IMG/VR virus record: IMGVR_UViG_3300011116_000416
Coordinates: 1-64,000 of that record
DNA length: 64,000 bases
Direction: 5' to 3' (one strand)
Origin: a virus
The translations under genes were made by a program, and so were the position numbers. This document shows, in pieces, positions 5,228 through 51,000 of the stretch (its first letter is position 1; each line of letters begins with the position of its first letter). Below the pieces are notes generated by a model. It saw only the letters and a program-made list of their open reading frames with translations. It was not told the DNA's origin and did no database searches.

Positions 5228-5400
5228 TGGAACTAGAGCAAGCATACCAAATAGTCTTAGCAGACTTAGAAAACAGAAACTCACACACAATAGGTAGGCT
5301 CTTACAATGGGACTATACAGGTCAAGAAAACGAAGTAATGTTTAGGGCTTGGCTTGCGGCTAAGAACTTTATAGAAAGTTTTGAGTGGGATAGGGCTTAG
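5227..5400 (+). CDS. Hypothetical early protein
   Basis: Coupled start TAATG at 5227; RBS AAGGA. Confidence 0.6.
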   Translation: MELEQAYQIVLADLENRNSHTIGRLLQWDYTGQENEVMFRAWLAAKNFIESFEWDRA

Positions 5401-5520
5401 GCTCTACCCTGGTCGGCAGCATAACAAATTGATAACATAATTTACGAAACACCATAAATTTCCCCTAAATGTCAGTGGGTATCTGTATAATTGAACTACA
5501 CCAAAAGAAAGAAGATAATT

Positions 5521-5952
5521 ATGGAAAACGAAAACGCAACAAGCAACCACCCTGTTCTAACTGCCCTAAATGGTAAGATTACCGAATTGGTAAATAGAAT
5601 TGCTGAGTTGGAAAAAGACATTGAAACAAGAAAAGAGCAATCAAGGCAACGAGCAGTTGAAATGGTTGAGAATGAAGAAAAACTACAAGAAGTTTTGGTT
5701 GAAGGTATCAACGATAGTGAAATCACACACGAATTCGCACAGGCTATCGCAGACATCTTTGGCATTGAACTAACAGAAGAAATTGCTGTTGAATTCACTT
5801 TCAAGGTTCAGGCAAGTTTCACTGTTCCTATTGGTTTTGATAGTGATGAACTTGCTAGTGAAGTTGGAATAAAAACTGAGTTTATTGGCAAGGCTGACGA
5901 GTATCTCAATAACGATTATTGGGAACTTGAAGATTGGCAAGTTTCATCTTAG
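5521..5952 (+). CDS. Coiled-coil acidic early protein
   Basis: Promoter 5470; start moved to ATG 5521. Confidence 0.7.
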   Translation: MENENATSNHPVLTALNGKITELVNRIAELEKDIETRKEQSRQRAVEMVENEEKLQEVLVEGINDSEITHEFAQAIADIFGIELTEEIAVEFTFKVQASFTVPIGFDSDELASEVGIKTEFIGKADEYLNNDYWELEDWQVSS

Positions 5953-6033
5953 GCGGTTCTAACCTTTCTTTTCCGCCTAACCTGTGGCTCTCAATGATAA
6001 CAGAGTAAGAGTAGCGTAGTCGCTACCGCCACA

Positions 6034-6060
6034 ACACCTGAGCAAGTGTATAAAAGGCTC
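6034..6060 (+). ncRNA. Putative H-type pseudoknot RNA element, copy 1
   Basis: ACAC-CT-GAGC-AA-GTGT-ATAAAAG-GCTC; pairings ACAC/GTGT and GAGC/GCTC. Confidence 0.65.
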
Positions 6061-6118
6061 TCCACAGCAGGAGTGGTGTCTTGAGTGTGTGATTATAATA
6101 ATAGTATGAATAATGACC

Positions 6119-6145
6119 ACACCTGAGCAAGTGTATAAAAGGCTC
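6119..6145 (+). ncRNA. Putative pseudoknot RNA element, copy 2 (immediately 5' of tRNA-Glu)
   Basis: Identical 27-mer to 6034-6060. Confidence 0.65.
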
Positions 6146-6149
6146 ACTT

Positions 6150-6224
6150 GGTCCCATCGTCTAGTGGTCAGGACATCAGGTTTTCATCCTGAAAACGAGA
6201 GTTCGATTCTCTCTGGGACTGCCA
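6150..6224 (+). tRNA. tRNA-Glu(TTC)
   Basis: GGTCCCA/TGGGACT acceptor stem, TCAGG-TTTTCAT-CCTGA anticodon arm, GTTCGA T-loop, encoded CCA. Confidence 0.95.
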
Positions 6225-6285
6225 ATTTTGGTCGGCACCAAAAATAACAGAATGATAACGCTTTACGAAAACCTTACGAAAACCC

Positions 6286-6314
6286 TTGACAAAACCCTGA
6301 AATCGTGGGACAAT
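6286..6314 (+). promoter_or_regulatory. Sigma70/SigA-type promoter
   Basis: TTGACA-17 nt-GACAAT with TG extension. Confidence 0.55.
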
Positions 6315-6363
6315 AGATTATCAGCAAAAGTTGATAATAAAAATACTAGTAGAAAGAAGCAAA

Positions 6364-6516
6364 ATGGGAAACACTATTCCAACTGTTGGCTCACAGTTCG
6401 CAACGCAGAAGTCTGGCGTGGTTGGCACTGTTCAGGAAGTCATCAAAAACGCAAGTGGTTCGTATCGTATTCGCCTAGATGTAAATGGCAAGACACGCTG
6501 GACAACCGCTAAGTAG
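6364..6516 (+). CDS. Small beta-rich (SH3/KOW-like) phage protein
   Basis: VGSQFATQKSGVVGTVQEV...RIRLDVNGKTRWTT; start moved to ATG 6364. Confidence 0.65.
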   Translation: MGNTIPTVGSQFATQKSGVVGTVQEVIKNASGSYRIRLDVNGKTRWTTAK

Positions 6517-6533
6517 TTCATAACAGAACTATA

Positions 6534-6560
6534 ACATCTGGGTAAATGTATAAACTGCCC
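6534..6560 (+). ncRNA. Putative pseudoknot RNA element, copy 3
   Basis: ACAT-CT-GGGT-AA-ATGT-ATAAACT-GCCC; compensatory changes in both stems. Confidence 0.6.
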
Positions 6561-6624
6561 ATTTACAAATCACCCTTTATCCTGTATAATTTATACATAA
6601 CCCTAAATAGAAAGAAGATAAATA

Positions 6625-7068
6625 ATGGCTCGTTCATTAGCAGTAAAAGTTCCAACCGCTAGTTTGATTGTTCTCGTAGAAGACAAGATTGCTAGTATTC
6701 AGTCTGCTCTTGCTACATACCCTGCTGATGTAAAGCAGTATGAAGCAGATGTAAAGGCTCACCAAGCAAACCTAGTCAAGTCTGTAATCAAGGTTCTAAC
6801 TGATAACCCTGAGTTGATTGGCGAAAACTATGATAGCCCAATTCGTGTTTCTTATGGCTATCGTGGTGTTGATGTAAGCATAGATGCTGATGCTCTTGGC
6901 TTACCTGAGCAACCAAAAAAGCCACAGAACCCAAATGATAGACAATCGTTTGGTCGTGAGTATGCTACTCCACTAGAAATGTTGGAAAAGACACTCAAAG
7001 TTCTAAAACTAACAACTCAGGAAGAAGTAAATGCTTCTACCTATTCATCAGTAATGGACTTACTATAA
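6625..7068 (+). CDS. Hypothetical phage protein
   Basis: ORF track 147 aa; TGTATAAT upstream. Confidence 0.75.
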   Translation: MARSLAVKVPTASLIVLVEDKIASIQSALATYPADVKQYEADVKAHQANLVKSVIKVLTDNPELIGENYDSPIRVSYGYRGVDVSIDADALGLPEQPKKPQNPNDRQSFGREYATPLEMLEKTLKVLKLTTQEEVNASTYSSVMDLL

Positions 7069-7131
7069 ACCATTGGCTTCCCCTAGTCTTCCGTTCCGTC
7101 AGGGTAAATCGCTAGACTTGCGTTAGCCAAA

Positions 7132-7158
7132 ACACCTGAGCAAGTGTCTAAAAGGCTT
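7132..7158 (+). ncRNA. Putative pseudoknot RNA element, copy 4
   Basis: ACACCTGAGCAAGTGTCTAAAAGGCTT (G-U in stem 2). Confidence 0.6.
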
Positions 7159-7201
7159 CCCAAGTTGGGGTAGCGACTAGATGGGTAAAATAATTTCGCT
7201 A

Positions 7202-7256
7202 ATCCCCTTGTGAAGTCTGGAGTAAAATCCCGAAAGTAGCAAGGGGATTTTTTCTT
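7202..7256 (+). terminator. Intrinsic terminator-like hairpin
   Basis: AATCCCCTTG...CAAGGGGATT followed by a T tract. Confidence 0.5.
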
Positions 7257-7314
7257 GCCGACCCCTTGTGGATAAAGCTGTGGAAAAGTTTATTAAGATT
7301 ATTTACGAAACCCC

Positions 7315-7343
7315 TTGACAATCCCTAGATTATTTGAGATAAT
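7315..7343 (+). promoter_or_regulatory. Sigma70/SigA-type promoter for DUF932 gene
   Basis: TTGACA-17 nt-GATAAT with TG extension. Confidence 0.6.
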
Positions 7344-7385
7344 TGAGTATCAAATAAATCCATTTATCACGAAAGGTGTCCATTT

Positions 7386-8399
7386 ATGGCTCACGAATTA
7401 GAAATAAACGAAGCAACAGGCGAAGCAACTTTTGCTAGCCTACGCCAACCTGCTTGGCACAATCTAGGAACTGTGTTTCAAGATGAAGTAAATACCGCAG
7501 AAATGCTATCCCTTGCTAAACTAGACAATTGGAATGTTCGCTTAGAAGAAGTCCCTGTCCCTGCTGGTTTTACTAGCGACAAAACTTATTCTTTTGTATC
7601 ACGAACTAATCCATTCAACAAAGACCAGACAGACATTCTGGGAATTGTTGGAGAACGCTACACACCTTTACAGAATGAAGACTTGTTTTCATTTGGCGAC
7701 AACTTGCTAGATGGTGGTGGGCGTTGGGAAACTGCTGGTTCAATCAAAGGTGGTAGAGTTGTATTTGGTTCTATTGCTTTACAGAACTCAATTACCCTAG
7801 ACCCGAATGGCATTGCTGATAAGATAGACAACTATCTACTTATCAACACATCTCACGATGGTTCTATCGCTATTCAAGCGTCAATCACACCTGTTAGAGT
7901 TGTATGTGCTAACACGCTAAACCTTGCTCTATCATCATTCAAGGGTAAAAAGGCAAGTAAGCAAACATTCAAGATTAGACACACTCAAACAGCGGAAGGC
8001 AAAATCGCAGTTGCTCGCCAAGCGTTGGGTCTTGCTAACTCTTACATTGACGAGTTTAGCGAACTTGCTAACAAACTTATTCAAACTGAGATTACTAAGG
8101 CTCAATTTGATAAGATTGTTGAACTTGCTTACCCTGCCCCTGAAAAAGACAGCAAGGGTTCATTCAAAAAGCACGACAGCAAAGTTGAACTACTAAACGA
8201 CATTTATGTTGGTCAGTATAACAACACTATTGCTGGAACTGCTTGGGGTGCTTACAATGCTCTAACAGAACGCTTGGATTGGTATAGAACTGCTCGTGGT
8301 GGCAACAGTGAAAGTATTTACGCTTCTGCTTCTGGTTTTGACCCTGTAATCAACGCTGAGAAAAATCGCCTAATGGGATTGGTTTTAGCAAACATCTAA
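7386..8399 (+). CDS. DUF932 / TIGR03299-family phage/plasmid protein
   Basis: PAWHNLG, YTPLQN, WETAGSIKGG, NTSHDGS, TPVRVVCANTL, GTAWGAYNA motifs. Confidence 0.85.
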   Translation: MAHELEINEATGEATFASLRQPAWHNLGTVFQDEVNTAEMLSLAKLDNWNVRLEEVPVPAGFTSDKTYSFVSRTNPFNKDQTDILGIVGERYTPLQNEDLFSFGDNLLDGGGRWETAGSIKGGRVVFGSIALQNSITLDPNGIADKIDNYLLINTSHDGSIAIQASITPVRVVCANTLNLALSSFKGKKASKQTFKIRHTQTAEGKIAVARQALGLANSYIDEFSELANKLIQTEITKAQFDKIVELAYPAPEKDSKGSFKKHDSKVELLNDIYVGQYNNTIAGTAWGAYNALTERLDWYRTARGGNSESIYASASGFDPVINAEKNRLMGLVLANI

Positions 8400-8405
8400 A
8401 CTGAT

Positions 8406-8432
8406 AGACCTGAGCAAGTCTAAAAACTGCTC
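8406..8432 (+). ncRNA. Putative pseudoknot RNA element, copy 5
   Basis: AGAC-CT-GAGC-AA-GTCT-AAAAACT-GCTC, 6 nt after the DUF932 stop codon. Confidence 0.65.
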
Positions 8433-8573
8433 ACCAATTTCCTACTTGACAAAGTGGGGAATTTGGGTCGGCAATTTTACATAATCTTGTTAGATATAAA
8501 AACTTAATTACGAACAGGTAAATTTTTCCCCAGAACTATTGCATTTGTCAGTGGTGGTCTGTATAATGGATTT

Positions 8574-8843
8574 ATGAATGAAGATGAAGAATACTATAAA
8601 TACCCTGAAGCACACGAACTAAAATCCTACCAAATCAAGCAATTTAAGGTTTGGGGTCTTGAAGCACTTGAAAGAGAGTTTTGGGACAGGATAGAGCGTG
8701 GTATCTTGAAACGCACCCCTGAAACAATGTCCTTTATTGAAATGCTAACAGGCATTCGTGAAGAAGCGTGGATTGCTCTTGAACCTGACAATCATAAGAT
8801 ACTTTATGATGAAATGCTGGAACAAGCGGCTATGCTTTGGTAA
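8574..8843 (+). CDS. Hypothetical early protein, probably leaderless
   Basis: ATG 6 nt after TATAAT of promoter 8546. Confidence 0.7.
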   Translation: MNEDEEYYKYPEAHELKSYQIKQFKVWGLEALEREFWDRIERGILKRTPETMSFIEMLTGIREEAWIALEPDNHKILYDEMLEQAAMLW

Positions 8844-8893
8844 TGTCAGTGGTATCCCCTATAATAATAATCTAAGAGAAAGAGAAAACCCTT

Positions 8894-9085
8894 ATGGCAA
8901 ATCTATACAATGTAAAAGTAATCGTAGAACTAGAATACGAAGTTGAGTGTGAAACCGAAGATGAAGCAGAAGAACTTGGCTGGCATTGGGAAGAATACAC
9001 ACAATACTCGTCTGTCTATTCCATAGATGTAGAACATCTAAAAGAGATAGAAGACTTTGATGAAGAAGATGAAGATAATGACTGA
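8894..9085 (+). CDS. Hypothetical acidic early protein
   Basis: Promoter 8844; YEVECETEDEAEE pattern. Confidence 0.7.
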   Translation: MANLYNVKVIVELEYEVECETEDEAEELGWHWEEYTQYSSVYSIDVEHLKEIEDFDEEDEDND

Positions 9086-9254
9086 TTGTGAATGCGACAA
9101 GGTTGATTGTCCTAAACACGAAGGCAGTTATGACTGTCATTCATTCTGCGACATTTGCGAAGGTAATCAGGGTTATTGCCCTACCCACGATGAATGGGAA
9201 GCAGAACAAGCACAAATCTATTTAGACCAACACAGACAGGAAGATAATGAGTGA
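9078..9254 (+). CDS. Small Cys/His-rich (zinc-binding) protein
   Basis: CEC..DCPKH...DCHSFCDIC...YCPTH. Confidence 0.6.
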   Translation: MTDCECDKVDCPKHEGSYDCHSFCDICEGNQGYCPTHDEWEAEQAQIYLDQHRQEDNE

Positions 9255-9394
9255 ACTAAAAAGCCTAATGGCTGAACGCAAAGCAATAGAAGCAGACCTA
9301 GACAAGTTTGAGGGTATGCTAAACGATTGGACTTATGACCTTATCGTAGGTCGTATGGAAATATTAGACAGTATGATTGCGATTGAGAGTTATA

Positions 9395-9631
9395 ATGCCT
9401 AAAATTTATAGAGCACAAATCATCTGGGACTTTGAAGTGGATGATGATGGATACGTTGAAAGCGAACGTGAGTATCTGGACTATGAACTTGAAGATGGTG
9501 AAACTCTGGAACCACGCACCGAAGAACAAATCATCAACTATGCTCGTAGTGAACTAGTAGAAGCACTATACAATGGTGTCAAATACAATGACCTATACAA
9601 TATGGTTGATGTGGTGGTAGTAAATGAGTGA
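9395..9631 (+). CDS. Hypothetical early protein
   Basis: ORF track, ATG 9395. Confidence 0.6.
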   Translation: MPKIYRAQIIWDFEVDDDGYVESEREYLDYELEDGETLEPRTEEQIINYARSELVEALYNGVKYNDLYNMVDVVVVNE

Positions 9632-16870: not shown

Positions 16871-17890
16871 ATGAAGATTTCTCGTATTGTATCTATCGTT
16901 CTTTCTATTGGTCTGTTGACCTCTACTACCCCAGCCTATGCTGGCGAATCTCTTGCTGGCAAGGGTTCTTCTTTTGCTTATAATGTTCTGGCTGTTTGTT
17001 CTGCAAACTATACAGTTGATGATGTAAATTATGTTTCAACTGGTTCTGGTACAGGTCGTACTGAATTTGCTGCTAAAAATGTTGAATGGGCTGCTACTGA
17101 TGCAGCATATACTTCTGGTTATCCAAACTTTAACTATGTAACCTTTCCACTATTCGGTGGACCAATCGCTTTTGCTTATTCAGCAGTTGGTGTTGGTGAC
17201 GGTCTAAACCTAACTCCACAAATTGTTTCTGGAATCCTAAAAGGAACAATCACTCGCTGGGACGATGCTGCAATTAAAGCTTTAAATCCTAGAGTTAAAC
17301 TTCCAAAAAAGGCAATAAAAGTTGCTTACAGAACATCTGGCTCAGGAACTAATACAAATCTAATTAACTATTTGCGTCAAACTGTTGGTGGCTGGACACC
17401 AGGTAGCGACATGGCTGCATCTTCTGGTGGATTAACAGCAAACTCAACATCGTTTGCAAACTCACAACTGCTAGCAACCTACATCGAAGACAACTCGAAC
17501 GCTTTCGGCTACTTTGACCTATCTGACGCAATCAACGCTGATGTCTCTATCGCAAAATTGAGAAACGCAGCTGGTTCATTTGTTGCACCTACCGCTAGTG
17601 CCGCAGGTAGATTTATTAACGCACAGACAATAAATCCCGATGGAACAATTACAATTGATTTTAACAAAACTGTTTCTGGTGCTTATCAATTATCTATCAT
17701 TACTTATGGACTAGCCCCAAAGAGACCTGATTCTCAAAAAACATCTAGTGGCAAAGGCTTGGCTATTCAAAAATGGTTTACTTACGTTGTTAGCACTTGC
17801 TTACCAGCTAAAGGTGCTGGCTTAGGATATTCTCCATTGTCAAGTTCTGTAAAATCAAAAACGTTAACGATTATTAAGTCTATTGGTTAA
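16871..17890 (+). CDS. pstS: Phosphate ABC transporter substrate-binding protein
   Basis: Signal peptide, GKGSSF, NYVSTGSGTG, WDDAAIKALNP, RTSGSGT, GAYQLSIITY. Confidence 0.9.
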   Translation: MKISRIVSIVLSIGLLTSTTPAYAGESLAGKGSSFAYNVLAVCSANYTVDDVNYVSTGSGTGRTEFAAKNVEWAATDAAYTSGYPNFNYVTFPLFGGPIAFAYSAVGVGDGLNLTPQIVSGILKGTITRWDDAAIKALNPRVKLPKKAIKVAYRTSGSGTNTNLINYLRQTVGGWTPGSDMAASSGGLTANSTSFANSQLLATYIEDNSNAFGYFDLSDAINADVSIAKLRNAAGSFVAPTASAAGRFINAQTINPDGTITIDFNKTVSGAYQLSIITYGLAPKRPDSQKTSSGKGLAIQKWFTYVVSTCLPAKGAGLGYSPLSSSVKSKTLTIIKSIG

Positions 17891-22659: not shown

Positions 22660-23897
22660 CGTGCCCTTAATGTTTTTATCTTGTGTCCAACTAGAGTATC
22701 TGTTGGCTTGCCATCACGATAAATTCTAATAACTGCTGCTGGGTCTTCTGGTGTACCGCTCACAGTGAAGTCAGAGTTTGGAACGTTATATTTACCATTA
22801 CGAATAATTCTAACAATCTTGCCAGTGGCAGTGCCGCCAGACGAATTCCAAGATACCATATCACCAACGCCAACTCCTTTATAAACTAATGTTTCTTCTC
22901 TAGAATAATCTTTACCAAAATCAGCAAACAGTGCTTTATCTTTCATTCTGTTTACGATTGCTCGTGACCATGTGAAGCCAGCATCGCCGCCCCAAGCGTC
23001 CCACATTATTCTACCGTTCGAAGGATTGCTTGTGTTATAGAAGTCTTTACCCTTTTTGTCTACCTCGTGACGAGAGAAGAATGAGTACATCCTTCGTACC
23101 ACGCTTAATGACATTGAGCGACCTGCTACAATATCTCTTGCTCTACCCCAACCAACTGGAGTACCTGCACCTGTAGCCTTCCCCTGTTCTTTCCAACGGA
23201 TAGCACGAGCAGCTGCTGCCTTCATACCAGAAGTAGGAGTATAGCCTTCAGCCTTATCCATTTCATTTTCCATCTCGTCTTCTTCATCTTCTTCTTCCAT
23301 CTCTAATTCTAAATCTGGAATCTTTTCTGCATCAGACATTAGCATACCAATTGAGTATGCGGTTGGCTCCCAGACACCTTCGTCTTCTTCGAATACTCTA
23401 ACAGCCATTGCTGGATTTTCTGGGGTAGACTGAATAGCATACTCTGTGCCTGGAATACCATACACGCCACCTTCAGTCATTACATGCTCAACAAGACCAA
23501 CAACCGTACCCTCTGATGTCATACCACGAACATAATCGCCTTCAGCAATAGGGAGTGCTTTATACATTGCACTAATGGCTGTGCCTCCACTACTTACGGC
23601 ACCAGAAGCAGACTGACCATTACCACCCTGCATTCTTTTTGGTTTACGAATCTTAACTTTCTTACCACCACGCATTGAGTCTGGTGTTCTTACTCCAACA
23701 TTTGGATATTTTGGATTAGGGGTAGATGATGGATTTACCCCTGTATCTGCTTTATCAGCTTCAGAAGCGTAAAGGGCTTGCACTTGTGCTGCTGCCTCTG
23801 CTTGTGTTGTGTGGCATCCCATCACTTCGCCACCTTCTTTTACTACTGGATATCCTGAGCATCCGTATGAACCTTTTTGTCCTACTGCATATGGCAT
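22656..23897 (-). CDS. Multidomain, probably virion-associated protein
   Basis: Modules: GCH...AAAQ..ALYASE; SH3-like GD.V; GTPVGWGRA...RMYSFFSRH...WDAWGGDAG; VGDMVSWNSSGG..GKI. Confidence 0.7.
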   Translation of the reverse strand: MPYAVGQKGSYGCSGYPVVKEGGEVMGCHTTQAEAAAQVQALYASEADKADTGVNPSSTPNPKYPNVGVRTPDSMRGGKKVKIRKPKRMQGGNGQSASGAVSSGGTAISAMYKALPIAEGDYVRGMTSEGTVVGLVEHVMTEGGVYGIPGTEYAIQSTPENPAMAVRVFEEDEGVWEPTAYSIGMLMSDAEKIPDLELEMEEEDEEDEMENEMDKAEGYTPTSGMKAAAARAIRWKEQGKATGAGTPVGWGRARDIVAGRSMSLSVVRRMYSFFSRHEVDKKGKDFYNTSNPSNGRIMWDAWGGDAGFTWSRAIVNRMKDKALFADFGKDYSREETLVYKGVGVGDMVSWNSSGGTATGKIVRIIRNGKYNVPNSDFTVSGTPEDPAAVIRIYRDGKPTDTLVGHKIKTLRAR

Positions 23898-24361
23898 TAG
23901 TCTTCCATCTCCATTTCATTCTCTGGCTCTTCCATGCTTGCACGAAGTTGCCAACAGAATTTCTGAGATGCTGTTTGCCTATCTGCAAAGAAGTTTGCCA
24001 ATCCATATTGTTTAGCATTGTTAGCCATATCACTTGCAAGAACAAGGTCTTCGATATGCTTTTCAATTGTGTCATACAGGTCTTCAATCATTGGTTCTGG
24101 TTCTCCAACCAATACTGGTTCTGATACCGTGCTCAAATCAAAAAAGTCTGCAAGTCTGTATGGTGAATAAGCTTTTAACATACGCAACCATTCTGCGTAT
24201 TCGTCTGTTGCACCATCAAAATCTTCATAAATTTCTGCAAAAAAATCGTGTAATTGTTTAAAGTCATCGGACTCTACGTTCCAGTGATAGCCATGTGCTT
24301 TAAATTTAATAGCAATATTGTTTGCTAGAAGCACCCTAAGTGCCGATAATAATTGTTCCAT
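23897..24361 (-). CDS. dps: Dps / ferritin-like DNA protection protein
   Basis: KAHGYHWNV..F.QLHDFF.EIY, D.YAE.LR, K..WQLRAS. Confidence 0.85.
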   Translation of the reverse strand: MEQLLSALRVLLANNIAIKFKAHGYHWNVESDDFKQLHDFFAEIYEDFDGATDEYAEWLRMLKAYSPYRLADFFDLSTVSEPVLVGEPEPMIEDLYDTIEKHIEDLVLASDMANNAKQYGLANFFADRQTASQKFCWQLRASMEEPENEMEMED

Positions 24362-24416
24362 TTGACAATTATACCATAATAAGTGGGCAGTTTTTAGTCA
24401 TACCCAGGACCGCTAA

Positions 24417-24821
24417 TTACTTGATAGTAATAGTCTTGGGCTTCTTTTCCTCTGGAATATTGATAACTAAATCAATAGTCAGAATGCCGTGCTTTAGTTC
24501 AGCCTTAGCGACTTCAGCGTATTCTGGTAGAGTAAATGAACGAGAGAACTTACGACCAGCAATACCCTTATAAACATAGCGGATATCTTCTGGTAGTTCT
24601 TTGTCCTCCTTAGTTTCACCACTGACTGTTAGGACATTCTTGTCTGTAGTGATTGTGATGTCATCTTTCTCAAATCCAGCAAGAGCGAATTCAAGATACC
24701 ATTCGTTCTTATCCTTTGAGTAGATTACATTATAGGGTGGGTATGTAGCCTTAATTGGCTGTGCAAACAACTTATCAAATTCCTGACTAAGCGTTGCGAA
24801 TGGGTCTGTATAGATTACCAT
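24417..24821 (-). CDS. Small heat-shock protein Hsp20 (IbpA-like)
   Basis: YPPYNV, LEFALAGF, YKGIAGRKFSRSFTL, GILTIDL, PEEKKPKTI. Confidence 0.92.
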   Translation of the reverse strand: MVIYTDPFATLSQEFDKLFAQPIKATYPPYNVIYSKDKNEWYLEFALAGFEKDDITITTDKNVLTVSGETKEDKELPEDIRYVYKGIAGRKFSRSFTLPEYAEVAKAELKHGILTIDLVINIPEEKKPKTITIK

Positions 24822-37627: not shown

Positions 37628-40600
37628 CCTCCATTATCGTTGTTCCATCTTTTGTTTTGCCTAATGCAAACTTATAAACATTTCCCTCGTCCAACTTCAT
37701 GTATGCCTTTGCAAACGTAGTTGGAAATACCGTAACGCTGTGAAGCTCTCTAGCGGCATCTGCCAGAACCAGCGAAGCCATCTTCTTCCCAGCCTTAGTC
37801 ACACGAGGTTTGAATGACACTACAAATAGTTCATCATCCTTGTATGGCAATTGCCTAAAGTTTAGCAACTTAATCAGTGCTGACGGATTACCCTTAACTT
37901 CATCGGCTGGAATAGCAGTAACAACCCTATTATCACTTGCTAAAACAATGTATGTTCTACCAGCTTCGATTGTCGTATTCTCGTCATCAAAGATACCTGT
38001 GCTACCAGTCTTATCTAGTAGTTCTACTCTTGACCATCCCTTGCCACGCTTGATACTCTTAATCATACCCATCAAAACGTATGCACCTTTTTCTTCGTAT
38101 TCTTCGACATCGTTGATGAATGCGTGATAGTGCTGTGGAATAGAAATGCTAAACTCTGGCAGATTTAGATACTCGTAAAGATTTTCACGAATTTCTTCAT
38201 CGTTTCTAGGGTTGTCATCAAATGTGGCAGCACCTACGAGCCTTAGAGCCTGTAATGCACGACTATTTACGCCATTGCCCTTACCAAATGTAAACGCTTC
38301 TAAGTCTTTATATGAAGCAAATGGTCTAGCCGCAATATACTTATTAGCAATGTTATCACTAATAAACTTGATAGCACTTAGTCCAAATCTAATACCCTTG
38401 CCTTCAATCTTGAAATCAACATCGGATTCATTGATGTGTGGCAAGCGAACTGGAATACCCATACGCTTTGCTTCGATTAGATATTCTGTACGAGCATCTT
38501 TATCGCTCTCATTCTTAAGTAGCGAATACATGAACTCAATTGGATAGTTGTACTTTAGCCATGCAGTCCAGTAAGATACTGTCGAATAGGCAACAGCGTG
38601 AGACTTGTTAAACGAATATCCAGCGTGAGCCTCAAAGTCATGCCACAGGTCTTCTGCCATGTTTGGTGACAGGTAGCGTGAAGCACCTGCAATAAACTTA
38701 TCTTGGAATACCTTAAACTCTTTAGCATCCTTTTTCTTACCGATAATCTTACGAACCTTGTCAGCTTCTGCCATCGTCATACCGCCAAGTTCCACACAGG
38801 CAAGCATAACCTGTTCCTGATACAGAATGCAACCATAAGTTTCTGCTGTAAATGACTTTATGACTTCGTGCTTGTAGTCAATATTTTGCTTACCGTGCTT
38901 ACGAGCAATATAGTCTTTACCGATTGTGTTCATAGCACCTGGACGAACCAAGGCGTTAGAAGCCGCCAACTCATTAAAGTTTTTAACAACCATCTTAATT
39001 AGTAGGTTGGTGTATGGCGTTGCTTCACATTGGAATACACCTTTAGTAAAACCATCAGACAACATACGATAAACATTGGCATCTTCCATATTAATTTTGT
39101 GTAGGTCAATGTCTTCGCCTGTACGCTCTTTAATAATTGCAAGCGTGTCCTGAATAACAGATAGAGTCTTTAGACCCAAAGCATCAATCTTAATTAGACC
39201 AATACGTTCTGCTTCTTCCATGTCCACTGCCACAACTGGAATACGTTCCTTGCTACCTGGAGTTGTTCTAGTCTCTAGTGGTGCATACTTAAAGATAGGC
39301 TCTTTAGCAGTAACCACACCAGCAGCGTGAATACCTGTACCACGAATACGACCACGAAGTTGTTCTCCATAAAGTTCAATCTCTGGATACTTCTCACGGA
39401 ATTCAGCAGTAGATTTTGATGTTAGGTAGTCATCCCAGTCATCAACCAACTTAAGAACCTTGTTCACATCTGGTAGCGGAATATTTAACACACGAGCAAT
39501 ATCACGAATCATTCCCTTACCCTTGAACTCTAGGAATGTTGCAATAGAAGCAACGTGACGATACTGACGGACAAGGTAATCCTTTACTTCTTCACGTCTT
39601 GAATCCTGAATGTCTGTATCGATATCTGGGAAGTCATTACGTTCTGGGTTAATAAATCTAAAGAACAGAAGACCATGCTTGATTGGGTCAACATCTGTAA
39701 TACCGAGAGCATAGCAGACAAGCGAGCCAGCGGCTGAACCACGACCTGGACCAACCATAATGCCTTCTTTCTTAGCCCAGTTAATCATATTACGAACAAC
39801 CAAGAAGTATGGTGCAAAATTCTTGTCTTTAATAATTTGCAGTTCTTCTTCAACTCTAGCGTGGTATGTTGGGTCTAAGTCTAGTCCACGAGCCTTTAAG
39901 CCATCTAGCGATAACTCATATAGTTCTTGGTCTGGATTCTGATATTGTGCAGGTAGCAGGTCTAAGTAGTCTTTGATATTGTAGTCTTCAACCTTGTTCA
40001 TAATCTCAACAGTGTTGTCGTACATGTCCTGTCTTACAATACCCTGGGCTTCCATAGCATTGTGCATCTCTTCGTCAGATAGCAGGTGAATTTCATAATC
40101 CCTAAAAGTAATCTGGCGGTCAGCACCATACAGGTAATCCAACTTGTCCATAAGATTGTCTAGCTTTTGGCTACCAGCAAAAGTAGCATCTTTCTCAATC
40201 TTGTTAGAATATGTGTTTAGGATTAGTTTGAGTTCCTGGATTTCTCTCTGCTCTTTATTTGCGTGATGGCAGTCAGGAGTCACAATTGGCTTGATACCAA
40301 ATTCATCTGCAAGACTTAGAATAGTCTTGTTAATCTCTGGTGGGTTATGTGGCATAACCTCGATGTAGTAGTCATCACCAAATGTCTCTTTAGCCCATTG
40401 TAGGTGCGACTTAGCACTTGCTAGGTCATCCGCTTCAATTGCTTTTGCAAGATAGCCAGATAGACAGCCAGAAGTAATAATAAGTCCTTCTTTATACTTT
40501 TCTAGTGAAGCCCAATCCATTCTTGGCTTCTTAAAAAATCCTTCTGTCCAAGCAATCTCATTAAGTTTGTTTAGGTTCTCTAAACCTTTTTCGTTTTTAG

Positions 40601-48094: not shown

Positions 48095-51000
48095 TTACAC
48101 TACCTCACTTACATATACTAGCATACTTAATCCAGTTTCGTTTTTGCTATGTTCAATTCCATATACAAGAAATTTTGAATTTGGGGATACTTCAAATACA
48201 TCAGAGCCTGGATTTGTATAGTTAATTTGAACGATATCTCCCAGTTGCAAAATTGGTAAACCAAAAACATCTATACCCAATACTTGTCTTGGTTTTCTTA
48301 ATTTATTAATTGTCCAATCCATAAGTCTATATGCTGTATCGTAGTTTTGAATATATGGTGAATCGATTGTAAACGATTTTGTTCCATATGTTAATCTACT
48401 ATTTTTAATATCAGTATATTGCTTTTTGTAAGAGTTTGGGTCTTCTCCAAAATTAAGACCATCATTATAAGATAGGTCGCTTCTCTTAAGGTAGTATTCA
48501 TCTACCGTTAAATCGTGAGTTGATTCTTGTGTAAACGCTATTCCTAGAATTCTTAAATAATTTCCAGATGTTGCGTCTAATGAAAGTGCAGAATCAGTAG
48601 CGTTAAATACTAAAAATTCTGCACCATATGGATTATCATTATATCCAGAAACAACGTATCCTCTTTCACCAGTAAATGTTGGTGCAATTTTAGAAAATAG
48701 TGCTGGATAAGCTTTTTCAAATCTAACATTAAAATAAGCCATCTCTCTCATAATTGTTCCAAATTCTTCATAGTATATTGTTGGTGCTGGTTTTCCAGTT
48801 GTTCTAATTCCGCTCAAAGCTGTTGATTGCAAAATTCCACTAAGAGCATATCTATTTGTAGAAATAGTTGCTGAAGATTCTCTAAAAATTGAATTAACTA
48901 ATTTTATATCCTCTGTATTGTTGGCGGTTGTGTCTACTGCAAATACGTTTTCAAACATTACTTTTGAGGAACCACGAATAAACAAGCCAACATTTTGAAC
49001 AAGAGGCAATGGAGAAGTATCTTCTACTGTGTCGATAAGACTATTATTTAGGTATATATAAAATTTTCTGCGATTACCTACTGTGAGCTCTTGTTCTGCT
49101 TGAACCGATAGGTCGTATACCGTTGGGTTTTGTTCTGCAGATACCCTACCCTGACCCACAAACTGACCATCATCTGTAATGATTGACCTTAAAGAACTAG
49201 ATAACAATATTGGTTTTAAGACACCGTTAGTTTTTTGTAACTTTGTGCTTGAAAGTGCAACATAATTGCCATTCTCTGTGGATGGTGATTGTCCAGTTAG
49301 TCTGACATAATCTCCAGCGGTAACTCCAGAAATTGCAGAAGATGCAGTAAAAATATCTCCGCTTAAACTTCCAGCAATATTATCTTTTGTTATTTCATAA
49401 GCCACTAGCTTATAAAATAAAACATTATAAATATCACTAGCAGATGTTATTCCTGTAAGAATTGGATTGCTGTCAGTTAATGCTATGATTTCATAGTAAT
49501 ATCCCTCTCCAGCTGCATTTGTGTAAAATGACATACCGCCAGACGAACCACCCAAAACCGTAGTTTTGTTTTTAGAATTTGTTAGAGAATATATGTCTAT
49601 GCTTCCATTTGGAAATTGTTTCGATGATGAAGATTCTTTATTTCCAATAATTCTCATTCTGGTTCCAAACGTATCGTATTTTGAGCCAGAAGATGTTAAA
49701 TTTTTAGTGATTCTATTAATTGATGCAGATGCAGAGCTATCTAAAACAAAGCCAGCTCCAGAGAATACCAAACTTGATGATTGCAACATATCTGTAGATG
49801 TGTCATATTTTTGTGTAGACATATTGTATTTTAGTGTAGATAAATAATTTTTAATTGCATAAGTTGCTGTGCCTAATTTTGTTAATGCAGACACATTTTC
49901 TGTTATGTTGGTAGATTTTTCTTCATTAAACACGTTTGTATAGACACCAGTATTTTCGTTTTTCTTTACATTAAATAAAAACTGGTAGTCGTTCAGGGTT
50001 GATTTTATTGTAGATGTTTGCCAATCTGTAATATTTGAACTTATTAAATGGTTGGTTATTGTTGTTCCAAATTGACCTCTACCGTGTTTTGCAACATCTC
50101 CTTCTTTTAACTTTCCATCTCTAGTCCATCTAGGTTCTGCATAAATTCTAACTTTTCCAGTCGGATACATTCTTCCACCTGCAGGTAAACTAGCAAAATA
50201 TTTTTGATAATCTTCTGTACTTGTAATAAATACTTCATTGTTTAAATAAGCTGTTCCAGATGTGGTTATTGCTCCTGTTGTTGTAGTTTTAAACTTAAAT
50301 TGTGTTAAATTTGGAACTGCTGTAATTGTTTGAACTCCACGATATCCAATAGGAACCACATCCATGATTACTATTTCATCCCCAACTTGCAAGTTATGAT
50401 TTGCGGAAGCAGTAAAAGTAACTTCTCCAGCTACTGAAACTATGCTAGAGTTATTTGCTGGTGTAATTGATATTGGAGAATTTGGAGATGTTACGTTATA
50501 TTGTATTGCATCATATTTTATAATTTCACCATTTGCATAGAAATATCCGTTATATCTACTCAGCCAGTAAACGCCATCCCCAAATTCAATGATATTGTTT
50601 ACAATTTGTCCCTTATTGTTTACCTGTGGTACTGAACTCCTTAATACTGCGTTTAACGGTACCGCACTTAAAACATAATTTGATTGAGTGGATAGCTCTT
50701 CATTAATGCTTTTGGTAGTTTGTTCTCCAGAAACTTCCCAAAGTAAAACTGGCTTATATCTCCAAATCCTATCTTTATCTAATTTACTTGCTTGTGTTAA
50801 TGAACTTATAGATTTTTGAATATATCTATTTTTATAAATAACCTTACCATCATTAAAGATGTCTTTATTTTCACCTTTTAAATTTATTATATTTGCTTTA
50901 ATTCCATTTGATAAATCATCGCCATATAAAACTATGTTTGTGTCCCTAACATTGCTTGTTTCTGGAACCAAAAATTGTTTGCTCATACAAACAAAATTAT

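What the first reader, a model, noticed from the sequence alone, without database searches (positions are those of the whole stretch)
6034..8432. Five copies of a covarying 27-nt H-type pseudoknot RNA in early 3' UTRs, one abutting tRNA-Glu
Seen: consensus NNAY-CT-GRGY-AA-RTNN-(A-rich 7 nt)-GCYY at 6034, 6119, 6534, 7132, 8406. Stem 1 covaries (ACAC/GTGT, ACAT/ATGT, AGAC/GTCT). Stem 2 varies as GAGC/GCTC, GGGT/GCCC and GAGC/GCTT; the G-U wobbles only pair on the + strand, which points to function as RNA. Copies lie shortly after stop codons (5952, 6516, 7068, 8399) or 4 nt before the tRNA 5' end. The topology (short stem, pairing loop, A-rich tail) resembles preQ1-I or exoribonuclease-resistant folds, but I do not recognise the sequence. 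Inference: an undescribed phage element that blocks RNase J/exonucleases, marks a processing site, binds a ligand, or acts as a protein sponge or antitoxin-like RNA.
Basis: partly seen in the sequence, partly recalled or inferred. Interest (0 to 1): 0.8.

Follow-up and report, generated by a model that had tools for sequence, protein, structure and literature searches.

The report
Widespread phage gene-end RNA pseudoknot
Six copies of a tiny 27-base knotted RNA fold sit just behind genes, and once just in front of a tRNA, in this freshwater phage and in well over a hundred other phage sequences; no RNA catalogue lists it, and it probably forms or shields the ends of messages, though this is untested.

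Summary
The five copies lie where stated, and a sixth lies at 24385-24411 on the minus strand (6 matches against 0.07 expected by chance). Both stems covary: on 99 distinct copies 96% of cells pair, against 82% when shuffled, and 7 of 8 pairs show changes on both sides.

No Rfam family matches, and five literature searches found no description in phages. One scan of IMG/VR hit its 120-locus limit. The fold also occurs in cultured phages of Arthrobacter, Mycobacterium, Clostridium, Celeribacter and Paracoccus, and in a crAss-like phage.

It lies in the sense orientation. It starts 5-9 nt after a stop codon in 70 of 156 cases and never 0-3 nt after. In this window it is followed by the next promoter, a hairpin or a tRNA.

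Its closest known relatives are the plant-virus coremin knot (xrRNA-C/WCC) and luteovirus-type frameshift knots. It is not a member of either. The coremin loop consensus fails, and the obligatory downstream hairpin is not enriched; an upstream hairpin is enriched instead.

My best reading (0.35) is a gene-end element that defines and shields the 3' end of the upstream message. The main rival (0.25) is a coremin-like 5'-to-3' roadblock. The function is untested.

This scan had already noted the same family on other genomes, and the coremin lead came from those notes.

The parts
6034..6060 (+). Knot copy 1, ACAC-CU-GAGC-AA-GUGU-AUAAAAG-GCUC. It lies 81 nt behind the stop of the 5491-5952 ORF, and a hairpin starts directly after it.
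6119..6145 (+). Knot copy 2, an identical 27-mer. It ends 4 nt before tRNA-Glu.
6150..6224 (+). tRNA-Glu (UUC), with an encoded CCA, directly behind copy 2.
6534..6560 (+). Knot copy 3, ACAU-CU-GGGU-AA-AUGU-AUAAACU-GCCC. It lies 17 nt behind the stop of the 6364-6516 ORF and 1 nt before a TTTACA-17-TATAAT promoter-like site (6562-6590).
7132..7158 (+). Knot copy 4, ACAC-CU-GAGC-AA-GUGU-CUAAAAG-GCUU. It lies 63 nt behind the stop of the 6625-7068 ORF. A small hairpin follows at once, then a hairpin plus T-run near 7203-7250 (read by eye), then a promoter-like site at 7315-7343.
8406..8432 (+). Knot copy 5, AGAC-CU-GAGC-AA-GUCU-AAAAACU-GCUC, followed by ACCA. It lies 6 nt behind the stop of the DUF932 gene (7386-8399).
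8434..8465 (+). Strong hairpin that starts 1 nt after copy 5 (-16.4 kcal/mol, z -4.2). It is the only clear coremin-style downstream hairpin in the window.
24385..24411 (-). It lies 5 nt behind the stop of an Hsp20 gene (24417-24821, -). 8 nt after it comes a TGGTATAAT box, whose ATG (ferritin/Dps-like gene, 23897-24361) follows 6 nt later.

Best explanation
The element is a cis-acting RNA knot at the end of a gene. It is transcribed with the upstream gene and folds into a compact H-type pseudoknot: stem 1 of 3-4 bp, a CU loop, stem 2 of 4 bp (5 bp where A10 can pair with U22), and an A-rich 6-7-nt loop ending in AAAC(U). It most likely marks and shields the 3' end of the upstream message.

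Shown:
- Both stems covary.
- The element lies in the sense orientation.
- It never starts closer than 4 nt to the stop codon, and the spacing piles up at 5-9 nt. By my recall of ribosome footprints, that is just outside a terminating ribosome, so it can stay folded while the gene is translated.
- What follows it varies: a promoter, a ribosome-binding site, a tRNA or a T-run.

Inferred:
- RNA 3' ends arise just behind it. They could come from termination where a U-run follows, from RNase P where a tRNA abuts, or from a cut in the G-poor AU-rich tail.
- The knot, often next to an abutting upstream hairpin, then halts 3'-to-5' exonucleases.
For: Fold:
- On 99 distinct copies 96.2% of cells pair, against 82.0% in shuffles. 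7 of 8 pairs carry changes on both sides, 0 of 500 shuffles reach this, and slid registers give 28-48%.
- Among 39 unique copies found without any use of pairing, the three inner stem-1 pairs are Watson-Crick in 39 of 39, with up to four pair types.
- Over 93 unique 27-mers G-U pairs outnumber A-C by 30 to 6.

Orientation:
- The longest open frame lies on the same strand upstream in 127 of 146 cases and downstream in 120 of 146.

Tie to the upstream gene:
- The stop-to-knot spacer is 5-9 nt in 70 of 156 cases, 0-3 nt in none and 4 nt in one. The distance to the next start codon is broader (7-185 nt, median 34).

Position in the window:
- The knot stands where a terminator would be expected, between a stop codon and the next promoter-like site (copies 3, 4, 5 and 6).
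- Two downstream genes start 6 nt after a -10 box, so the knot cannot be their leader (read by eye).

Signs of a 3' end behind the knot:
- A T-run of 5 or more starts within 8 nt behind it in 24 of 164 copies (14 of 108 loci), against 2 and 0 in control windows.
- A tRNA starts 2-8 nt behind it in 11 of 164 copies, but a tRNA ends within 20 nt in front of it in only 1.
- ACC follows it in 24 of 164 copies and ACCA in 13, against an ACC background of 1.2%.
- A hairpin ends 0-1 nt in front of it in 31% of copies, against 12% in shuffles.

Independence from the polymerase:
- It occurs in a T7-like phage (Paracoccus ParMal1, family Autographiviridae), whose kin carry their own RNA polymerase (recalled), as well as in phages such as this one with sigma-70-type promoter-like sites. 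This points to a post-transcriptional role.
Against: - No RNA ends were seen. No usable RNA run exists, and contigs cannot show ends.
- Nearest-neighbour energies of either stem alone are only -0.3 to -2.6 kcal/mol. A GC-rich hairpin would be a stronger and easier block to 3' exonucleases.
- The near-identical sequence across many phyla suggests a more special job than end-capping.
- The known look-alikes (coremin, frameshift knots) act on machines that move 5' to 3' (PMC10321173, Results and Discussion read).
- Copy 4 already has a canonical hairpin plus T-run 45 nt further on, so a cap would be redundant there.
- Most copies (140 of 164) have no T-run, and most (153 of 164) have no tRNA behind them.
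- Many IMG/VR loci are relatives of this phage: 15 of 98 upstream genes are DUF932. The counts are therefore not independent.
Confidence: 0.35

Rival explanations
1. Coremin-like 5'-to-3' roadblock. The knot stops a 5'-to-3' exoribonuclease (RNase J) or a scanning RNase E that arrives from the upstream gene. Decay started upstream then does not run into the next cistron or tRNA.
For: - The architecture and part of the sequence match the coremin / xrRNA-WCC model: a 3-bp hairpin, a loop that starts with C, a stem 2 of GAG-CUC type, and a loop holding UAAAC(U) in the same position.
- A flavivirus xrRNA blocks bacterial RNase J1 in vitro (PMC5760640, passages).
- Sequence conservation across phyla suggests a special mechanical fold.
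- True copies in prokaryote genome bins come mainly from Bacillota, Bacteroidota, Patescibacteria, Cyanobacteria and Actinobacteria. Only one doubtful case among 28 loci is gammaproteobacterial.
Against: - In coremin and WCC the hairpin directly downstream is strictly needed for Xrn1 resistance. Here it is not enriched: 24% against 25% in shuffles and 12.8% against 8.4%.
- Plain H-type frameshift knots do not stop Xrn1.
- No RNase J above the cut-off was found in 3 of 5 carrier genomes, among them a Capnocytophaga isolate.
- In this window the genes downstream of copies 3, 5 and 6 have promoter-like sites of their own behind the knot, so their primary transcripts would not hold it.
Confidence: 0.25
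2. Ribosome-directed element. The knot docks at the mRNA entrance of the ribosome when the stop codon is in the A site. There it tunes termination, or it stops post-termination ribosomes from sliding into the next unit, acting as a translational insulator.
For: - The spacer of 5-9 nt, never 0-3, is the same as between a slippery site and a frameshift knot (recalled).
- Coremin and WCC knots stall scanning ribosomes. They also drive -1 frameshifting without the second hairpin, including in a screen run in E. coli.
- The ribosome is the one 5'-to-3' machine shared by all hosts.
Against: - Slippery heptamers are not enriched (6 of 164 against 7 of 164 in a control window).
- In 86 of 156 cases the nearest such upstream stop lies 11 nt or more away, or the ORF ends inside the knot itself (5 at the internal TGA, 1 at -2). 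Copy 2 precedes a tRNA.
- The same spacing would arise from compaction plus a need to stay clear of the ribosome.
Confidence: 0.1
3. tRNA-end mimic. Stem 2 followed by A-C-C-A copies the acceptor end of a tRNA (G paired to C, U at -1, A as discriminator, then CCA). RNase P, 3' trimming enzymes or the CCA-adding enzyme would then treat the knot as a miniature tRNA and punctuate the transcript there.
For: - ACCA follows the knot in 13 of 164 copies and ACC in 24 of 164 (background 1.2%). 7 of the 13 ACCA cases are followed 3-4 nt later by a tRNA, as in tRNA arrays.
- A tRNA starts 2-8 nt downstream in 11 of 164 copies.
- The enzymes concerned are nearly universal (recalled).
Against: - 85% of copies lack ACC.
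- The stacked helix has only 8-9 bp and no T-loop.
- Several of the ACCA cases are homologous loci of related phages.
- The RNase P determinants and the TYMV precedent are recalled, not tested.
Confidence: 0.1
4. Binding site for a small ligand or for a conserved protein, in the manner of a riboswitch, a sponge or a processing signal.
For: - The topology is of the preQ1-I type: a short stem 1, an A-rich tail and a short stem 2 (recalled).
- Several unpaired bases are invariant or nearly so: C in loop 1, A in loop 2, and AAA in loop 3.
Against: - The preQ1-I model, like every other Rfam model, gave no hit on the knot at E up to 10.
- There are up to 9 copies per locus, they lie behind genes or before tRNAs, and they have no fixed relation to a ribosome-binding site.
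- The carriers are too diverse (crAss-like, T7-like, actinophages) to share a phage-encoded partner.
Confidence: 0.1
5. DNA-level element, such as a recombination hotspot, a module boundary or a protein-binding site. On this view the RNA fold is incidental.
For: - Contigs of related phages in public runs join across the interval between copies 1 and 2 (6032 to 6116, and 5990 to 6119).
- Other phages' contigs match this one only over the knot.
- In a group of related loci, and at copy 6, the knot ends 8 nt before an extended -10 box.
Against: - Compensatory changes occur in two interleaved stems, with G-U tolerated and A-C avoided (30 to 6). Together with the sense-strand bias, this is hard to explain for duplex DNA.
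Confidence: 0.03

Closest known systems
Coremin motif (xrRNA-C) of beny-, cucumo- and other RNA viruses (Dilweg, Peer and Olsthoorn 2023, PMC10520033: abstract and passages read; PMC6546385: search listing only)
   Same: Both have a very short first hairpin (3-bp core), a loop that starts with a pyrimidine (C), and a following stretch of 7-8 nt that holds UAAAC(U) just before the bases thought to pair back to the loop. Both are about 20-27 nt long, sit behind coding regions, and keep their sequence across unrelated viruses.
   Different: - The coremin loop is YGAD or YGNNAD, with G fixed at loop position 2. Here the loop is CUGAGCAA, with U at position 2.
- Coremin's back-pairing is non-canonical; here it is 4-5 Watson-Crick pairs that covary.
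- Coremin needs a second hairpin directly downstream, which is not enriched here; an upstream hairpin is enriched instead.
- Coremin hosts are eukaryotes with Xrn1.
Watson-Crick coremin variant xrRNA-WCC (Sanxia picorna-like virus 5 and selected variants; Dilweg et al. 2023, PMC10321173: Results and Discussion read)
   Same: Both form a canonical antiparallel stem 2 between the hairpin loop and the spacer, and in SPlV5 this is GAG-CUC, the same three pairs as in the common phage form. G-U is tolerated at the outer pair. A-rich bases are proposed to dock in the stem-1 minor groove. The WCC variant drives frameshifting without the second hairpin.
   Different: - In WCC loop 1 is a single, essential G; here it is CU.
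- Stem 2 is 3 bp in WCC and 4-5 bp here.
- WCC has a 4-nt hairpin loop; here the loop has 8 nt.
- Xrn1 resistance of WCC still needs the downstream hairpin.
Luteovirus-type minimal frameshifting pseudoknots (BWYV P1-P2), as discussed in PMC10321173; dimensions recalled
   Same: Both are H-type knots of under 30 nt with a short loop 1 holding a C, a loop of about 7 nt rich in A, and a placement 5-9 nt behind the codon in the A site.
   Different: No slippery heptamer lies upstream (6 of 164 against 7 of 164 in a control window). The codon in front is a stop codon, and no extended frame follows.
preQ1-I riboswitch (Rfam RF00522; architecture recalled)
   Same: Both are among the smallest H-type knots, with an A-rich 3' tail that ends in a few bases pairing to the hairpin loop.
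   Different: The preQ1-I model gave no hit at E up to 10. The phage knot lies behind genes, not over a ribosome-binding site, and occurs in many copies per genome. Loop 2 is A plus one variable base and lacks the ligand-pairing C (recalled).
Intrinsic terminators and 3' stabiliser hairpins of bacterial and phage operons (general knowledge)
   Same: The position is the same, between a stop codon and the next promoter. A subset is followed by a T-run (24 of 164), and A-rich sequence is often found in front.
   Different: This is a pseudoknot of fixed sequence, not a GC-rich palindromic hairpin. Most copies have no T-run. It is strand-specific by construction.

Membership tests
Coremin / xrRNA-C | First hairpin loop follows YGAD (4 nt) or YGNNAD (6 nt), with G fixed at loop position 2 (PMC10520033) | tested here: not met
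   The loop is CUGAGCAA (8 nt) with U at position 2 in over 90% of the 99 aligned copies. The paper notes that one octaloop works in the BNYVV context, so size alone does not exclude membership.
Coremin / xrRNA-C | Conserved spacer of 8-10 nt behind the hairpin (GUUAAACUAC in the original motif) | tested here: inconclusive
   UAAACU is shared and lies in the same place. AAA is invariant. C is present in 126 of 138 contexts and U in 123 of 138. The remainder of the spacer differs.
Coremin / xrRNA-C | Second hairpin directly downstream, required for Xrn1 resistance | tested here: not met
   Across the family, a hairpin starts 0-3 nt after the knot in 24% of copies against 25% in shuffles, and the downstream 35-nt MFE is -2.86 against -2.55. 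With an MFE cut of -4 or lower, a start at 0-1 nt occurs in 12.8% against 8.4%. In the window itself copies 1, 4 and 5 do have one, and copy 2 has the tRNA.
Coremin / xrRNA-C | Stalls a 5'-to-3' exoribonuclease | not testable with these tools
   This needs an enzyme assay.
xrRNA-WCC | Watson-Crick stem 2 between the hairpin loop and the spacer | tested here: met
   Stem 2 pairs in 98.2% of cells, and 3 of its 4 pairs show changes on both sides.
xrRNA-WCC | Loop 1 is a single G that cannot be changed | tested here: not met
   Loop 1 is CU. The C is invariant in the 99 copies, and the U is present in at least 90%.
preQ1-I riboswitch (RF00522) | Match to the family covariance model | tested here: not met
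   cmscan of 5900-8600 at E up to 10 lists no preQ1 hit, and the whole window at gathering scores gives only tRNAs.
preQ1-I riboswitch (RF00522) | Sits in a 5' leader, with its 3' end at or over the ribosome-binding site or before a terminator | tested here: not met
   In the window it lies behind stop codons and in front of promoter-like sites. Across the family the distance to the next start codon ranges from 7 to 185 nt.
-1 frameshift stimulator | Slippery X XXY YYZ heptamer 5-9 nt upstream | tested here: not met
   Found in 6 of 164 contexts, against 7 of 164 in a control window.
Intrinsic terminator | Structure followed at once by a U-run | tested here: inconclusive
   A T-run of 5 or more starts within 8 nt in 24 of 164 copies (14 of 108 loci), against 2 and 0 in controls. 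By the same script's T-rich test (5 or more T in 8), 1 of the 6 window copies (copy 6) qualifies.

The most novel reading that the evidence does not exclude
The knot followed by A-C-C-A may be a 27-nt stand-in for a tRNA acceptor end. Phages of many phyla would then use it to borrow the universal tRNA-processing enzymes (RNase P, 3' trimming, CCA addition) and cut their long transcripts into single-gene messages with tRNA-like, repairable 3' ends. This would be a miniature, knot-based form of 'tRNA punctuation'.

A second bold reading also remains open. The knot could be the phage counterpart of the coremin xrRNA of eukaryotic RNA viruses, which would make it the first exonuclease-stopping RNA found in the prokaryotic virus world.
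Probability: 0.1. Interest if true: 0.9.

Novelty: new variant of a known kind. Interest (0 to 1): 0.75.

Why it matters
This is a 27-base RNA whose sequence is kept almost unchanged across phages whose named hosts or genome bins span Actinobacteria, Bacillota, Cyanobacteria, Alphaproteobacteria, Bacteroidota and Patescibacteria. Such an element must touch something universal, or act purely through its shape.

If it sets or shields message ends, it would explain how compact phage operons give each small gene its own RNA lifetime without bulky terminators. If it works like the coremin knot, exonuclease- or ribosome-stopping RNA knots would be shared by DNA phages and eukaryotic RNA viruses.

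It would also be a very small, portable part for stabilising or insulating synthetic bacterial transcripts.

Cultured carriers make it directly testable: Arthrobacter phage Amigo, Mycobacterium phage Labelle, Celeribacter phage P12053L, Clostridium phage phiCT19406B and Paracoccus phage ParMal1.

Tried and rejected
Rfam. The whole window at gathering scores gives only the 5 tRNAs. The region 5900-8600 at E up to 10 gives 5 rows. The only one touching a knot is Plastid-psbJ-3 over copy 5, at 18.8 bits against a gathering score of 61.7 and E 6.1, which is chance level.

Near-identical phage records. Megablast of 5400-9400 against the phage collection found nothing.

Literature. Five searches found no description of this element in phages:
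- general terms.
- six sequence strings, which found only unrelated primers and siRNAs.
- coremin/xrRNA.
- exoribonuclease-resistant + bacteriophage + RNase J.
- xrRNA/phage genomes/RNase J/coremin.

In PMC10520033 the words 'phage' and 'bacteriophage' occur 0 times. PMC11702639 (outline and abstract only) concerns class 3 xrRNAs, not coremin.

RNA evidence. No RNA holder is listed for the stretch. The runs I laid are contigs, which cannot show RNA ends or strand.

Rejected ideas:
- A frameshift signal: no slippery heptamer enrichment.
- A coremin-style downstream hairpin.
- A sigma-70 -10 or -35 reading of the motif itself. By eye, the variable positions fall where -10 boxes are invariant.
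- An N4-type hairpin promoter. No phage RNA polymerase appeared among the 8 and 10 large ORFs scanned, but the two largest ORFs (1597 and 2184 aa) were not scanned.
- A hammerhead, pistol or other small ribozyme. The core motifs, recalled, do not fit, and there is no Rfam hit.
- An RNase-J-only target.

The Cyanophage MED4-117 BLAST hit lies inside a gene on the other strand and lacks both stems, so it is chance. The Pasteurella, Vibrio and Listeria hits, and the Sinorhizobium hit, were not inspected.

A wider count of the family was not made.

Full report
What is there.

The degenerate pattern gives 6 matches in the window, against 0.07 expected; 0 of 100 shuffles reach 6. The sixth match is a further copy on the minus strand at 24411..24385. 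A loose structural descriptor asked for three inner stem-1 pairs, four stem-2 pairs, C in loop 1, A in loop 2 and AAA in loop 3. Run over the whole 85.6-kb virus record, it returns exactly these six plus one probable false hit at 50221 (-); shuffles average 0.32.

The layout is stem 1 (4 nt), CU, stem 2 (4 nt), A plus one variable base, stem 1' (4 nt), a 7-nt A-rich loop, and stem 2' (4 nt). In the copies whose loop 3 ends in CU, the A after stem 2 can pair with that U, giving a fifth stem-2 pair.

Is it a real RNA fold?

One IMG/VR scan with a 17-base-specified pattern hit its 120-locus limit and gave 126 matches. In all but two of the printed rows (L113, L115) the three bases in front are NAC, with N complementary to the free base in GUN'.

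To avoid circularity I then searched the 1.97 Mb of fetched loci for any site within 5 mismatches of a consensus that ignores pairing. The reversed consensus, as a control, gave 0 hits at 4 mismatches or fewer and 5 hits at 5. Among the IMG/VR loci, 181 sites at 4 mismatches or fewer collapse to 93 unique 27-mers. Of these, 39 do not fit the retrieval pattern. In those 39:
- The three inner stem-1 pairs are Watson-Crick in 39 of 39. One position is AU 23 and UA 16, with no single-sided change. Another shows four pair types.
- Each stem-2 pair is a standard pair in 37-39 of 39, through GGGU/GCCC, GGGC/GCCC, AAGC/GCUU and GAGU/GCUC.

Over all 93 unique 27-mers, G-U pairs outnumber A-C by 30 to 6.

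On 99 distinct sequences (these 93 plus the six window copies), 96.2% of cells pair, against 82.0% after shuffling. 7 of 8 pairs carry changes on both sides, 103 cells are double changes against 26 expected, and 0 of 500 shuffles reach the observed values. Sliding the partners drops pairing to 28-48%.

One caveat applies. Many loci are relatives of this phage: 15 of 98 upstream genes are DUF932, as in the window. Cells therefore count sequences, not independent events.

Is it known?

Rfam 15 has no family for it. Five literature searches found nothing on such an element in phages.

Earlier notes of this same scan had already described the family on other genomes as a 'widespread phage gene-end RNA pseudoknot' and named the coremin motif as the nearest known thing. 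I took that as a lead and read the papers. The findings were:
- Coremin is GUCCGAAGACGUUAAACUAC. It has a 3-bp hairpin with a YGAD or YGNNAD loop, a conserved spacer and an obligatory second hairpin (PMC10520033, passages).
- Its Watson-Crick variant forms a three-pair stem 2, GAG-CUC in SPlV5, with loop 1 a single essential G.
- Both variants need the second hairpin to stop Xrn1, but the Watson-Crick form drives -1 frameshifting without it.
- Plain frameshift knots do not stop Xrn1 (PMC10321173, Results and Discussion).

The phage knot shares the short hairpin, the C at the start of the loop, a GAG-CUC type stem 2 and UAAAC(U) in the same place. It fails the loop consensus and the loop-1 rule.

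Where it sits.

The knot lies in the sense orientation. The longest open frame is on its strand upstream in 127 of 146 contexts and downstream in 120 of 146.

In 156 of 164 contexts an ORF of at least 50 codons ends within 200 nt upstream. The spacer from the stop codon to the 27-mer is 5, 6, 7, 8 or 9 nt in 21, 20, 12, 11 and 6 cases, making 70 of 156. It is 4 nt once and 0-3 nt never, although the first two bases of the knot are free to vary. Five ORFs end at the knot's own internal UGA. The distance to the next start codon is broader, from 7 to 185 nt with a median of 34.

The flanks carry no conserved sequence. The roughly 8 nt behind the knot are G-poor and AU-rich.

In the window the knots stand between a stop codon and the next promoter-like site:
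- Copy 3 ends 1 nt before TTTACA-17-TATAAT.
- Copy 6 ends 8 nt before TGGTATAAT.
- Copies 4 and 5 are followed by hairpins and then promoter-like sites.

The genes behind copies 5 and 6 start 6 nt after their -10 boxes, so they look leaderless and cannot use the knot as a leader (by eye).

New context statistics.

- The coremin-type downstream hairpin is not enriched. The downstream 35-nt MFE is -2.86 against -2.55 shuffled, and a hairpin starts within 0-3 nt in 24% of copies against 25%. With an MFE cut of -4, a start at 0-1 nt occurs in 12.8% against 8.4%.
- A hairpin instead ends 0-1 nt upstream of the knot in 31.1% of copies against 12.0% shuffled, and within 0-3 nt in 42.7% against 19.7%.
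- A T-run of 5 or more starts within 8 nt behind the knot in 24 of 164 copies (14 of 108 loci), against 2 and 0 in control windows. In locus L073 all nine copies have it.
- A tRNA starts 2-8 nt behind the knot in 11 of 164 copies (Asp 8, Glu 3). A tRNA ends within 20 nt in front in only 1.
- ACC follows the knot in 24 of 164 copies and ACCA in 13 (background ACC 1.2%). 7 of the 13 ACCA cases are followed by a tRNA 3-4 nt later.
- Slippery heptamers are not enriched: 6 against 7 of 164.

Who carries it.

Among named phages I confirmed it by eye in the following:

| Phage | What was seen |
|---|---|
| Arthrobacter phage Amigo | SSB stop, 8 nt, knot with a 9-nt loop 3, 3 nt, tRNA-Gly |
| Mycobacterium phage Labelle | Stop, 6 nt, knot |
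| Celeribacter phage P12053L | Between the ribonucleotide reductase and glutaredoxin-like genes, with a hairpin abutting upstream |
| Clostridium tetani phage phiCT19406B | AAGC/GCUU form |
| Paracoccus phage ParMal1 (Autographiviridae) | Stop, 6 nt, knot, ACCA |
| crAss-like phage cr7_1 | Knot present |
| Erwinia phage Berlingot | Imperfect stem 1 |

BLAST also lists Lentibacter, Geobacillus, Bacillus, Microcystis and Nostoc phages, which I did not inspect.

In 596 Gb of prokaryote genomes the pattern matches 118 times. Only 29 of these (28 loci) have the complementary NAC. They lie in bins or isolates of Patescibacteria, Bacillota, Bacteroidota, Cyanobacteria, Actinobacteria, two Woesearchaeota bins and a few others. 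The other 89 look like chance, and I estimate about 69 expected.

RNase J (TIGR00649 above its cut-off) is present in 2 of 5 carrier genomes tested. It is absent from a Capnocytophaga isolate, a Sphingobacteriaceae bin and a Woesearchaeota bin; the two bins may be incomplete.

The window's phage.

It is probably an actinophage from fresh water. Its DUF932 protein matches 602 phage records, mostly of actinobacterial hosts, with a best identity of 53.8% to Streptomyces phages.

How it most likely works.

The knot's firmest tie is to the end of the upstream gene, and what follows it is interchangeable. It stands where a terminator would be expected. It stays clear of the terminating ribosome by a sharp minimum of 5 nt. 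A subset is followed by a U-run, a tRNA or a tRNA-like ACCA. It also occurs in a phage of the T7-like family, whose kin use their own RNA polymerase (recalled).

I therefore commit, at 0.35, to a post-transcriptional gene-end element that fixes and shields the 3' end of the upstream message. The fold, orientation and spacing are shown. The origin of the 3' ends and the stalling of 3' exonucleases are inferred.

The main rival, at 0.25, is the coremin-like 5'-to-3' roadblock. It has the better structural precedent, and it would explain the extreme sequence conservation. It is weakened by the missing downstream hairpin, by hosts without RNase J, and by the promoter-like sites behind the knots in this window.

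Ribosome-directed, tRNA-mimic, ligand- or protein-binding and DNA-level readings remain possible at 0.1, 0.1, 0.1 and 0.03.

Verdict.

The element is an uncatalogued, widespread, strongly covarying RNA family. It resembles the coremin and frameshift knots but is not a member of either, and its function is open and directly testable in cultured phages.

Noticed in passing
window 6032-6119: Contigs of related phages in public runs join across the interval between knot copies 1 and 2: 6032 to 6116 in a DNA run and 5990 to 6119 in another run. Some relatives therefore seem to have a single knot directly before the tRNA. The two identical copies may mark a duplication, or a recombination between repeats.
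   Followed up: partly
window 8433-8436, and loci L009, L024, L027, L028, L031, L045, L105: ACCA directly follows the knot in 13 of 164 copies. In 7 of these a tRNA starts 3-4 nt later, so the knot occupies the slot of an upstream tRNA in an array.
   Followed up: partly
window 8562-8576 and 24373-24359 (-); also 6094-6108: TATAAT boxes are followed 6 nt later by an ATG, a leaderless-type gene start. At 6106 such an ATG opens a 6-codon mini-ORF that ends at the internal UGA of knot copy 2.
   Followed up: no
window 6230, 7256, 8466: The octamer GGTCGGCA / TGCCGACC recurs beside hairpins just behind the tRNA, behind the hairpin plus T-run after copy 4, and behind the hairpin after copy 5. Another first-stage note on this window (e1-6120504) lists about 12 such sites.
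   Followed up: no
window 6262-6291 and 7300-7320: The TTGACA boxes of the promoter-like sites at 6286 and 7315 are preceded by a shared TTACGAAA(A)CCC stretch.
   Followed up: no
window 23897-24821 (-) and 16871-17890 (+): The phage carries host-like stress and nutrient genes: Hsp20 (PF00011, E 7e-18), a ferritin/Dps-like protein (PF00210, E 2e-14) and a PstS-like phosphate-binding protein (PF12849, E 4.5e-20).
   Followed up: partly
locus L073 (IMG/VR contig of 6171 bases): Nine knot copies lie within about 3.2 kb. Each sits behind a small ORF and each is followed by AUAU plus a run of 5-8 U. Several carry single uncompensated changes, such as GAGC/GCCC and GGAC/GCCC.
   Followed up: partly
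loci with DUF932 genes (15 of 98 upstream ORFs), and window 7386-8432: The pairing of a DUF932 gene with a knot directly behind its stop codon recurs in many uncultured relatives. Much of the IMG/VR sample therefore belongs to one phage group.
   Followed up: partly
locus L246 (Arthrobacter phage Amigo, record 39914-39946): In this copy loop 3 is 9 nt (GUGUAAACU) instead of 7. The loop can therefore take a 2-nt insert in front of the UAAACU core.
   Followed up: no
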